Assembly: GCA_964016885.1 (NCBI GenBank)
Contig: OZ024740.1
Coordinates: 129,270,001 to 129,334,000, forward strand
DNA from: Eledone cirrhosa
Taxonomy: Eukaryota
Direction of reading: 5' to 3'
DNA: 64,000 bases
A program made the position numbers and the translations under genes. Each line of letters starts with the position of its first letter. Position 1 is the stretch's first letter. Under the pieces are notes generated by a model that searched no databases, was not told the DNA's origin, and saw only the letters and a list, made by a program, of their open reading frames with translations. Shown one piece after another: positions 18,730 to 19,256 of the stretch.

Positions 18730-19256
18730 GTATAAATATATCGTATCTCAAAAGAAATACACGTTTAGGAAGCGGTAGCTATGCAAACACCGGGGGGGGG
18801 GCTAATACCCTCTGGTGATTTCCAGCAAAGCAAGGGGGACAACCCTCTATGCATTTCTTGTTTAACTGCCCTTCGTCAGGACGGTCCCTCCCAGCGCTTG
18901 GAACTGCTGGACTAGAAGGCAGCTGAGAATGTATACTTTTCTCCTCAGTGTAAATGAGATGATTAATCTCATTTGCATATGAAGCTGCATAAGTTGGCTC
19001 AACTTATAATAAAAAAGAAATAGGATTTCGCTTCAAGCATAGCTTTATACAATACCGTCCTGACGAAGGCCAGTTAAACCTGAAATGCATAGACGGGTGT
19101 CCCCCTTGCTTCTGATAGACATCACCAGAGGGCGTTAGCCCCCCGGTGTTTGCATAGCTTCGGCTTCTTCCTAAACCTTTATTTCTTTGGAGATACGAAA
19201 TATTTATATATATTGTATAAAGCTATGCTTGAAGCGAAATCCTTTTTTCTCTTTTA
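18730..19256. mobile_element. Family D: ~325-nt monomer on the minus strand (19054 to 18730) plus a head-to-head partial copy (19055-19256) spanning the monomer junction
   Basis: 19055-19208 is an inverted copy of 18731-18884, and 19211-19243 is an inverted copy of 19022-19054. (TA)n flanks. Confidence 0.85.
19055..19096 (+). ncRNA. Minimal type I hammerhead (family D); diverged mirror copy at 18843-18884 (-)
   Basis: CCGTC-CTGACGA-AGG.CCAGTTAAA.CCT-GAAA-TGCA-TA-GACGG; palindromic stem III ATGCAT; AUA triplet. Confidence 0.88.

What the first reader, a model, noticed from the sequence alone, without database searches (positions are those of the whole stretch)
18730..19256. Circular permutation revealed by a nested inversion (family D, ~325 nt)
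Seen: the minus-strand copy runs B-spacer-A (19054 to 18730), while the plus-strand copy runs A-B (19055-19243). The end of the monomer is therefore joined to its own start. The plus copy begins exactly at stem I of a canonical hammerhead. Inference: the template was a circle or tandem multimer with no room for an ORF, which is the best local evidence for a truly non-autonomous element.
Basis: partly seen in the sequence, partly recalled or inferred. Interest (0 to 1): 0.72.

Follow-up and report, generated by a model that had tools for sequence, protein, structure and literature searches.

The report
Ribozyme-bearing Penelope-type mini-retroelement, inverted pair
This locus is a head-to-head pair of copies of an abundant 326-base non-coding repeat that carries a hammerhead self-cutting RNA motif, and its layout is the usual footprint of Penelope-like retroelement insertion, so it is likely an ordinary new member of the known animal "retrozyme" class and not special proof of a circular template.

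Summary
At 18730-19254 two copies of one repeat lie head to head inside a (TA)n tract. The minus arm reads B-spacer-A-linker. The plus arm reads A-linker-B.

The repeat is a 326-nt, ORF-less unit with at least 1,862 first-look candidates in this 3.0-Gb genome. It carries a type I hammerhead motif with a one-base-pair helix III and a palindromic UGCA loop. Rfam does not call this motif; a descriptor scan and pair counts do.

In 56 non-redundant loci I mapped 96 arms:
- 37 loci have the same head-to-head layout, with variable 5' truncation.
- All 26 classifiable pairs carry the roughly 42-nt B "tail" at exactly one outer end.
- 71 of 82 classified 3' ends abut (TA)n.

These are the published hallmarks of Penelope-like element (PLE) insertion. 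The inversion therefore likely arose at integration, and "A joined to B" is the PLE partial tandem plus one-sided tail.

"Circle" is not shown: arms reach at most 2.3 units, and only 6 of 96 hold two ribozymes. The start at stem I is not enriched above chance. No partner PLE was found and no RNA data were available.

Verdict: new member of a known kind, of modest interest.

The parts
18449..18729 (.). Left (TA)n-rich microsatellite, with (TATC)n and TG interruptions, abutting the 3' end of the minus arm
   Evidence: In the family, 71 of 82 classified 3' ends are followed by (TA)>=4 within 60 nt, against 137 of 1064 background windows.
18730..18741 (-). A/T-rich linker that closes the unit; this is the tail-less 3' terminus of the minus arm
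   Evidence: The same ...GAGATACGAAATATTTATACA end followed by (TA)n is seen in most of the tail-less arms listed; 36 of 96 arms are tail-less.
18742..19054 (-). Minus arm: one unit (q1-313) reading B (19054-19011), spacer (19010-18886), A (18885-18742)
   Evidence: It is about 90% identical to 33 other full-length copies.
18836..18888 (-). Degenerate hammerhead of the minus arm (q167-219): core kept, 3' strand of helix II lost, one mismatch in helix I
   Evidence: first row against the other 46 rows; it fails the descriptor scan.
19054..19197 (+). Plus arm, A part (q170-313), 5'-truncated; it abuts the 5' end of the minus arm with 1 nt of overlap
19055..19103 (+). Hammerhead motif of the plus arm, lacking distal helix I. 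CUGACGA 19060-19066; helix II AGG/CCU; GAAA 19082-19085; helix III A-U plus palindromic UGCA; predicted cut between 19091 and 19092
   Evidence: passes the looser descriptor; family pair counts; cleavage not tested
19198..19210 (+). Linker between A and B in the plus arm (the unit junction)
19211..19252 (+). B 'tail' of about 42 nt: the start of the next unit, present at this outer end only
   Evidence: One-sided in all 26 classifiable pairs.
19253..19510 (.). Right (TA)n-rich microsatellite abutting the tail

Best explanation
The locus is a head-to-head pair of 5'-truncated copies of a 326-nt ORF-less repeat that carries a type I hammerhead motif. It was likely made in one insertion into a (TA)n tract by the reverse transcriptase and GIY-YIG endonuclease of a Penelope-like element (PLE) acting in trans.

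**Shown**
- The unit, its abundance and the hammerhead motif.
- Fixed 3' termini and variable 5' ends.
- Partial tandems and inverted partner arms.
- A tail of about 42 nt at one outer end only.
- (TA)n flanks.
- Equal decay of the two window arms, with shared rare variants.

**Inferred**
- An RNA longer than one unit is the template. It is probably linear and terminally redundant, starting in the last roughly 70 nt of an upstream unit.
- Two cDNAs are primed at the two ends of the cut target and grow toward each other.
- The cDNAs are joined at their truncated 5' ends.
- The hammerhead would cut multimeric transcripts after UA at q207. Because its helix III is one base pair with a palindromic loop, it would probably work best as a dimer.
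For: **Family and unit**
- 118 matches and 1,862 first-look candidates, of which 40 were scored.
- 1,637 candidates.
- 34 full-length copies are 90-95.5% alike on average.

**Hammerhead motif**
- Each of 15 helix pairs is formed in 68-81 of 81 copies. Each of 13 core positions is conserved in 76-81 of 81.
- One double compensatory change (C-G to U-A in helix II) occurs in both arms of L014.
- A strict descriptor gives 0 hits in 200 simulated 64-kb sequences, against 46 hits in 182 kb of family loci.
- The MFE fold of a natural unit recovers helices I and II: -107.7 kcal/mol, z -5.4, 0 of 100 shuffles as stable.

**Insertion architecture** (56 non-redundant loci, 96 arms)
- 37 head-to-head pairs.
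- 77 A-linker-B junctions.
- Pair classes by outer ends:

| outer ends | pairs |
|---|---|
| tail + no tail | 26 |
| tail + tail | 0 |
| no tail + no tail | 0 |
| one end unclassifiable | 11 |

- Under independent choice of end, P is about 1e-8.
- 71 of 82 classified 3' ends have (TA)>=4 within 60 nt, against 137 of 1064 background windows.

**Window arms**
- Each arm has 10 private differences from the family majority. 3 differences are shared, 2 of them rare in the family, over 181 compared positions.

**PLEs in this genome**
- 10,596 GIY-YIG first-look candidates.
- ORFs with RT followed by a C-terminal GIY-YIG domain.
- Two of 20 sampled PLE loci are near-perfect head-to-head pairs: L106 1,629 nt at 100%, L096 1,732 nt at 99%.

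**Literature**
- PMC8557442 (passages) describes 5' truncation, partial tandems, an inverted 5'-truncated copy, a 30-40-bp tail often at one end only, and (TA)n targets.
- PMC7229834 (passages) describes non-LTR retrozymes.
- bioRxiv 10.64898/2026.07.22.740005 (abstract and sections 14 and 16) argues that retrozymes are non-autonomous PLE derivatives.
Against: - No autonomous partner was found. None of 30 + 20 GIY-YIG loci shares more than 31 nt of A/T-rich sequence with the unit (best E 0.14 and 0.023). That is 50 of more than 10,596 candidates.
- Rfam's hammerhead models do not report the motif at E<=10, even on 91 nt.
- The hammerhead is no better conserved than the rest of the unit (0.97 against 0.96). 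Covariation rests on a single event.
- Self-cleavage, transcription and mobility were not tested.
- 11 of 82 classified 3' ends lack (TA)n, so the target preference is not absolute.
- My two samples were chosen by BLAST score. Short arms are under-sampled, and arm starts near the variable C-run (q255-263) may be alignment breaks.
Confidence: 0.78

Rival explanations
1. One reading: the template was a circular RNA, made by hammerhead cleavage and ligation as in a retrozyme, and copied by rolling-circle reverse transcription. That would explain why the unit's end is joined to its start.
For: - The unit is ORF-less and carries a type I hammerhead.
- Arms longer than one unit exist, up to 736 nt or 2.3 units.
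- Neither 3' terminus lies at the predicted cleavage site. A cleaved linear monomer was therefore not the direct template.
- Metazoan retrozymes of 170-400 nt are reported as circRNAs (PMC7229834, abstract and passages).
Against: - Only 6 of 96 arms hold two complete hammerheads, and none holds three. Few loci could release a unit by double cleavage.
- Arm lengths cluster at 418-445 nt (13 of 96).
- By my reading, about 21 of 31 arms that reach q1 stop within 75 nt upstream. That fits a linear RNA with a start near q254-326 better than an endless circle.
- The strict one-tail asymmetry (26 of 26 classifiable pairs) has no explanation under internal priming on a circle.
Confidence: 0.15
2. The arms are only 5'-truncated end pieces (pLTR plus tail) of a full-length autonomous PLE whose terminal repeat happens to be this unit. 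On this reading there is no separate non-autonomous family.
For: - The architecture is identical to that of autonomous PLE insertions (PMC8557442; L096 and L106).
- Earlier notes of this scan reached this verdict for similar finds in other genomes (unchecked leads).
Against: - Every arm that runs past one unit continues into another unit and never into coding sequence. There are 77 junctions, 49 B segments run on into the spacer, and none of the 96 B segments counted in the 96 arms runs into anything else.
- The 30 longest flank ORFs give 2 RT-related hits, neither adjoining the element.
- 0 of 50 PLE loci resemble the unit.
Confidence: 0.05
3. A local rearrangement unrelated to insertion: a tandem copy was later inverted, or this is a foldback or MITE-type DNA element with terminal inverted repeats.
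For: The locus is a 513-nt imperfect palindrome flanked on both sides by (TA)n.
Against: - The layout recurs in 37 of 56 loci, with different inner breakpoints and unequal arm lengths (34-736 nt). The outer termini are the same two in 82 of 96 arms. A TIR-defined transposon would have constant arms.
- This is not L1-type twin priming, because both arms contain the same 3' region.
Confidence: 0.02

Closest known systems
Non-LTR retrozymes of animals (Cervera & de la Pena 2020, PMC7229834; Li, Clavereau & Pollet 2026 preprint, 10.64898/2026.07.22.740005)
   Same: - Short (150-450 bp) non-coding repeat unit with a type I hammerhead.
- GC below 50% (43%).
- No LTR or ORF.
- Head-to-tail junctions.
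- Helix III is weak: one base pair capped by a palindromic tetraloop, as described for amphibian motifs that act as dimers.
- Proposed dependence on PLEs.
   Different: - Copies are dispersed and 1-2.3 units long, not dimers to 62-mers. Only 6 of 96 arms hold two ribozymes.
- Circular RNA and self-cleavage were not tested here.
- The PLE-type footprints (inverted arm, one-sided tail, (TA)n) are explicit here. They did not appear in the passages and sections of those two papers that I read.
Insertions of endonuclease-bearing Penelope-like elements (Craig, Yushenova, Rodriguez & Arkhipova 2021, PMC8557442)
   Same: - Frequent 5' truncation.
- Partial tandem forming a pLTR.
- Inverted 5'-truncated copy at the 5' end.
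- A 30-40-bp tail at one end only.
- Hammerhead motif.
- Microsatellite, here (TA)n, insertion bias.
   Different: - No RT/GIY-YIG ORF, and the whole unit is 326 nt.
- In that paper (TA)n targeting is stated for Naiads, which lack canonical hammerheads. This family combines (TA)n flanks with a canonical core.
- In the commonest long form (start near q260) the hammerhead lies in the body and not in the short repeated end.
Non-autonomous Chlamys elements such as MRC1 of Chlamydomonas (PMC8557442, passage read)
   Same: Short non-autonomous PLE derivatives that form pLTRs and multicopy head-to-tail insertions.
   Different: - Those share 3' ends with identified autonomous families. No partner was identified here.
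- Different host kingdom, and no hammerhead reported.

Membership tests
Hammerhead ribozyme, type I | Conserved core: CUGANGA, GAA, A15.1-U16.1, and H17 (not G) at the cleavage site | tested here: met
   Each of 13 core positions is conserved in 76-81 of 81 copies. Plus arm of the window: CUGACGA 19060-66, GAAA 19082-85, UA|G 19091/92.
Hammerhead ribozyme, type I | Three helices around the core, with helix I open | tested here: met
   - Helix I is 5 + 4 bp with a UUG bulge. Helix II is 4 bp. Helix III is A-U plus a UGCA loop.
- Pairs are formed in 68-81 of 81 copies.
- The MFE fold recovers helices I and II.
- The descriptor gives 0 hits in 200 simulations.
Hammerhead ribozyme, type I | Match to the curated covariance models (Rfam clan CL00010) | tested here: not met
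   No hammerhead hit at gathering score or at E<=10, in the window or in five cleaner loci, even on 91 nt.
Hammerhead ribozyme, type I | Self-cleavage at the predicted site | not testable with these tools
   Needs in vitro transcription of a natural monomer and dimer.
Non-LTR retrozyme | Short ORF-less unit (150-450 bp), low GC, no LTR/PBS/PPT | tested here: met
   326-nt period, 43% GC, and stop-free frames of at most 115 codons, mostly without ATG. PBS and PPT were not searched for.
Non-LTR retrozyme | Tandem arrangement with at least two hammerheads, so that a unit can be released | tested here: inconclusive
   77 head-to-tail junctions, but only 6 of 96 arms hold two complete hammerheads. 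The maximum is 2.3 units.
Non-LTR retrozyme | Expressed as linear and circular RNA of unit length | not testable with these tools
   No RNA run is listed. The four runs laid are contigs of unrecorded library type.
Penelope-like element insertion (EN+) | 5' truncation, partial tandem (pLTR), and an inverted 5'-truncated copy at the 5' end | tested here: met
   96 arms of 34-736 nt sharing two 3' termini, and 37 head-to-head pairs in 56 loci.
Penelope-like element insertion (EN+) | 30-40-bp tail, often at one end only | tested here: met
   The tail is about 42 nt. All 26 classifiable pairs have exactly one.
Penelope-like element insertion (EN+) | Single ORF with RT and GIY-YIG endonuclease | tested here: not met
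   The unit has no such ORF and no such ORF adjoins it in the flanks. It can therefore be at most a non-autonomous derivative.
Penelope-like element insertion (EN+) | For a non-autonomous derivative: a 3' end shared with an autonomous family of the same genome | tested here: inconclusive
   0 of 50 sampled GIY-YIG loci match, but more than 10,596 candidates exist.

The most novel reading that the evidence does not exclude
The strict rule "one tail per inverted pair" (26 of 26 classifiable pairs) shows that the two arms of a Penelope-type insertion are primed at two fixed, different template positions 42 nt apart within one event. A 326-nt ribozyme-bearing unit, present in thousands of copies, would then be a compact natural reporter for the still unsolved PLE integration mechanism. 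A minority of its templates (arms up to 2.3 units) would come from hammerhead-made RNA circles copied by rolling-circle reverse transcription.
Probability: 0.2. Interest if true: 0.5.

Novelty: new member of a known kind. Interest (0 to 1): 0.3.

Why it matters
- It gives a clean invertebrate-type example in which a retrozyme-like, hammerhead-bearing mini-repeat shows every footprint of Penelope-like integration. This supports the recent proposal, so far argued for frogs, that animal retrozymes are non-autonomous PLE derivatives.
- The counts are useful constraints for models of PLE reverse transcription. These are the one-sided tail in 26 of 26 classifiable pairs, the (TA)n flanks, and the lack of 5' ends at the cleavage site.
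- It does not change what is known about ribozymes or circular RNAs.

Tried and rejected
**RNA evidence**
- No RNA holder was listed for the family.
- The four runs laid are Logan contigs of unrecorded library type. They show only that the repeat is abundant in them. They say nothing on expression, ends or circles.

**Rfam**
- Four scans found no hammerhead at this motif.
- The many microRNA "hits" are (TA)n or palindrome artefacts below their gathering scores.

**Partner PLE**
- BLAST of a natural 1.5-unit copy against 30 GIY-YIG loci with 1.5-kb flanks and 20 long-ORF loci of 9.9 kb gave only A/T-rich matches of 31 nt or less.
- The apparent match next to the L106 element end is (TA)n-like sequence.

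**Earlier notes of this scan**
- Nothing by sequence or near this window.

**Coding potential**
- A sense frame stays open for 60-115 codons. It lacks ATG in most copies and ends at the variable C-run, so I rejected it as a gene.

**Hot spots of 5' ends**
- Neither the hammerhead start nor the cleavage site is enriched.
- The cluster at q258-279 may partly be alignment breaks at the C-run.

**Not searched**
- Other animal genomes could not be searched with the tools on hand.
- Supplements of the papers cited were not opened.

Full report
**1. The observation**

The stretch 18742-19254 is an imperfect palindrome set between two long (TA)n-rich tracts.

The repeat finder on the cleaned interval gives nested inverted matches:
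- 18742-18885 with 19054-19197, in four collinear pieces of 74-93% complementarity.
- 19011-19054 with 19211-19254, at 91%.

BLAST of the interval against the window gives E 1e-41 to 1e-45 for the A parts. It finds no further copy in the 64 kb.

Read on the minus strand, the left arm is B (19054-19011), spacer (19010-18886), A (18885-18742), then a 12-nt A/T-rich linker down to 18730. The right arm on the plus strand is A (19054-19197), linker (19198-19210), B (19211-~19252). The two arms are circular permutations of one unit of 313 + 13 = 326 nt.

**2. The family**

The window lies at C1:129270001-129334000 of a 3.0-Gb assembly.

- A search with the minus arm gave 118 matches and 1,862 first-look candidates, of which 40 were scored.
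- A second search, with the 3' 166 nt of another natural copy, gave 1,637 candidates.
- 34 full-length copies are on average 90-95.5% identical to each other. The window's copy is the most diverged, at 90.3%.

After removing four loci fetched twice, I mapped 96 arms in 56 loci.

**3. The hammerhead**

In the commonest form the segment q167-219 reads as follows:

| part | sequence |
|---|---|
| helix I, 5' strand | GGGA-CCGUC |
| core | CUGACGA |
| helix II | AGGC, loop CAGUUAA, GCCU |
| core | GAA |
| helix III | A-U closing a palindromic UGCA |
| cleavage site | A, cut after it |
| helix I, 3' strand | GACGG-UUG-UCCC |

*Support for the motif*
- Each of the 15 pairs is formed in 68-81 of 81 copies. 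Each of 13 core positions is conserved in 76-81 of 81.
- The only compensatory double change is C-G to U-A in helix II. It occurs in both arms of L014, so it is one event.
- A strict descriptor (helix II at least 4 bp, helix I at least 5 bp) found nothing in 200 simulated 64-kb sequences. It found 46 sites in 182 kb of family loci.
- The MFE fold of a natural unit contains helices I and II: -107.7 kcal/mol, z -5.4, with 0 of 100 shuffles as stable.

*Evidence against*
- Rfam reports no hammerhead at gathering score or at E<=10, even on 91 nt.
- The motif is no better conserved than the rest of the unit (0.97 against 0.96). That is expected for young dead copies, but it means conservation adds nothing.

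*In the window*
- Only the plus arm keeps a usable motif. Its helix II has 3 bp and its distal helix I is missing.
- The minus arm has lost the 3' strand of helix II.

The weak helix III with a palindromic tetraloop is the type described for amphibian retrozymes, which cleave well only as dimers (PMC7229834, passages).

**4. The architecture is that of Penelope-like insertions**

*3' ends*
- 82 of 96 arms end at one of two fixed 3' termini; the other 14 end elsewhere ('other').
- 36 arms end at the close of the linker.
- 46 arms end about 42 nt further on, after B. This is the "tail".
- 71 of the 82 classified ends are followed within 60 nt by (TA)>=4, against 137 of 1064 background windows.

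*5' ends and arm length*
- 5' ends vary. Arms are 34-736 nt long with a median of 310 nt.
- Arms that exceed one unit always continue through the linker into another unit. There are 77 A-linker-B junctions.

*Head-to-head pairs*
- 37 of 56 loci have a second arm in inverted orientation. It abuts the first at the 5' ends, with overlaps of up to 7 nt or fillers of up to 48 nt.
- Several "single" arms have short inverted stubs that BLAST missed (L002, L070, L067).
- In 26 pairs both outer ends can be classified. All 26 have one tail and one tail-less end.
- If each arm chose its end independently, 49% mixed pairs would be expected (P about 1e-8).

Craig et al. 2021 describe exactly this set for EN+ PLEs: 5' truncation, partial tandems forming pLTRs, an inverted 5'-truncated copy at the 5' end, and a 30-40-bp tail often at one end only. 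They report (TA)n as a preferred target for Naiads (PMC8557442, passages).

*PLEs in this genome*
- The genome is rich in such elements, with 10,596 GIY-YIG candidates.
- ORFs with RT followed by a C-terminal GIY-YIG domain are present.
- Two of 20 sampled loci are near-perfect head-to-head pairs, at 100% and 99% identity. The machinery therefore seems recently active and produces this layout.

**5. The window's locus in that light**

- It is one such pair. The minus arm is one full unit and tail-less. The plus arm is truncated at q170 and tailed.
- Over 181 comparable positions each arm has 10 private differences from the family majority. They share 3, two of which are rare in the family.
- The arms are therefore of equal age and come from the same source. 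This fits one old insertion event better than a later inversion.
- The start of the plus arm at q170 is not a hot spot. 7 of 96 arms start in q160-176, against about 5 expected. 5 of 96 start in q201-215, around the cleavage site.

**6. Circle, multimer or linear RNA?**

*Points toward a template longer than a cleaved monomer*
- The A-to-B junction shows that the template ran past the unit boundary.
- Neither 3' terminus lies at the cleavage site (q207/208). Cleaved linear monomers were therefore not the direct template.

*Points against a circle as the main template*
- Only 6 of 96 arms hold two complete hammerheads, and none holds three.
- Arm lengths cluster at 418-445 nt (13 of 96). These arms start at about q258-279 of an upstream unit.
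- By my reading of the junction strings, about 21 of 31 arms that reach q1 stop within 75 nt upstream.
- This fits a linear, terminally redundant RNA that starts in the last roughly 70 nt of an upstream unit, as Penelope transcripts start in the pLTR (PMC8557442, passage on the TSS).

*Caveats*
- Some of these starts may be alignment breaks at the variable C-run.
- My samples were chosen by BLAST score.
- Eleven arms are longer, up to 2.3 units. Multimeric templates therefore exist: read-through of tandems, template jumps, or circles.

I could not separate these possibilities. No RNA run was listed, and the contigs laid are of unrecorded type.

**7. Is it merely the end of an autonomous PLE?**

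- Of the 96 B segments counted in the 96 arms, 49 run on into the spacer and 47 end as a tail. None runs into other sequence.
- The 30 longest of 121 flank ORFs gave two RT-related hits, 300-800 nt away from the element and typical of background TEs.
- None of 50 PLE loci resembles the unit.
- The unit's longest open frame is 60-115 codons, and most copies have no ATG in it.

The family therefore propagates as an ORF-less element. Its helper remains unidentified, and only 50 of more than 10,596 candidates were checked.

**8. Comparison and novelty**

- The element works like, and most likely is, a non-LTR retrozyme in the sense of Cervera & de la Pena 2020 (PMC7229834).
- It is also a non-autonomous PLE derivative as proposed by Li et al. 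2026 (bioRxiv 10.64898/2026.07.22.740005; abstract and sections 14 and 16 read).
- It differs from the classic cases in being dispersed in short partial tandems and not in long arrays. It also shows the full PLE footprint.
- Earlier notes of this scan describe similar head-to-head, one-tailed, hammerhead-bearing insertions on other pieces of this genome and in other genomes. They are unchecked leads that agree with this reading.

I rate it a new member of a known kind. "Circle revealed by a nested inversion" over-reads a standard PLE footprint.

Noticed in passing
window 29379-35020 (+): Two overlapping long open frames. The second (31406-35020, 1,204 aa) has an AP-endonuclease domain, RVT_1 and zf-RVT, so this is a LINE-type retrotransposon. 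It is unrelated to the finding.
   Followed up: partly
L022:2644-3218 (G000:C5, beside a family copy): Three weak Rfam Hammerhead_HH9 matches (24.6 bits each, E 0.025, below the gathering score of 52), spaced about 200-300 nt apart on both strands. This may be another hammerhead-bearing repeat family next to this one.
   Followed up: no
L106:3260-6525 and L096:1913-5402: Head-to-head pairs of RT/GIY-YIG element copies with arms of 1,629 nt at 100% and 1,732 nt at 99% complementarity. These look like very young Penelope-like insertions. The L106 ends abut TA-rich repeats.
   Followed up: partly
L070:2105-2608 (-): An open frame of 168 aa with a borderline Pfam match to Bunyavirus glycoprotein G2 (25.0 bits, at the cut-off, E 1.3e-5). 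It may be a virus-derived fragment or chance.
   Followed up: no
L012:2076-2133 (-): A tRNA-like match just above Rfam's gathering score (31.2 against 29 bits), about 270 nt from a family copy. It may be a tRNA-derived SINE or a pseudogene.
   Followed up: no
family unit q52-q260 (window minus arm 19003-18795): A sense-strand frame stays free of stops for 60-115 codons in five natural copies. It lacks ATG in most of them and ends at the variable C-run. I read it as a by-product of the GC-richer, structured part of the unit.
   Followed up: partly
window 18449-18741 and 19253-19510: Unusually long compound microsatellites, (TA)n with (TATC)n, (TG)n and TTTATATGTA variants, on both sides of the insertion. 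In several loci the unit's own A/T-rich linker merges with the tract, so the exact element ends are blurred by a few bases.
   Followed up: partly
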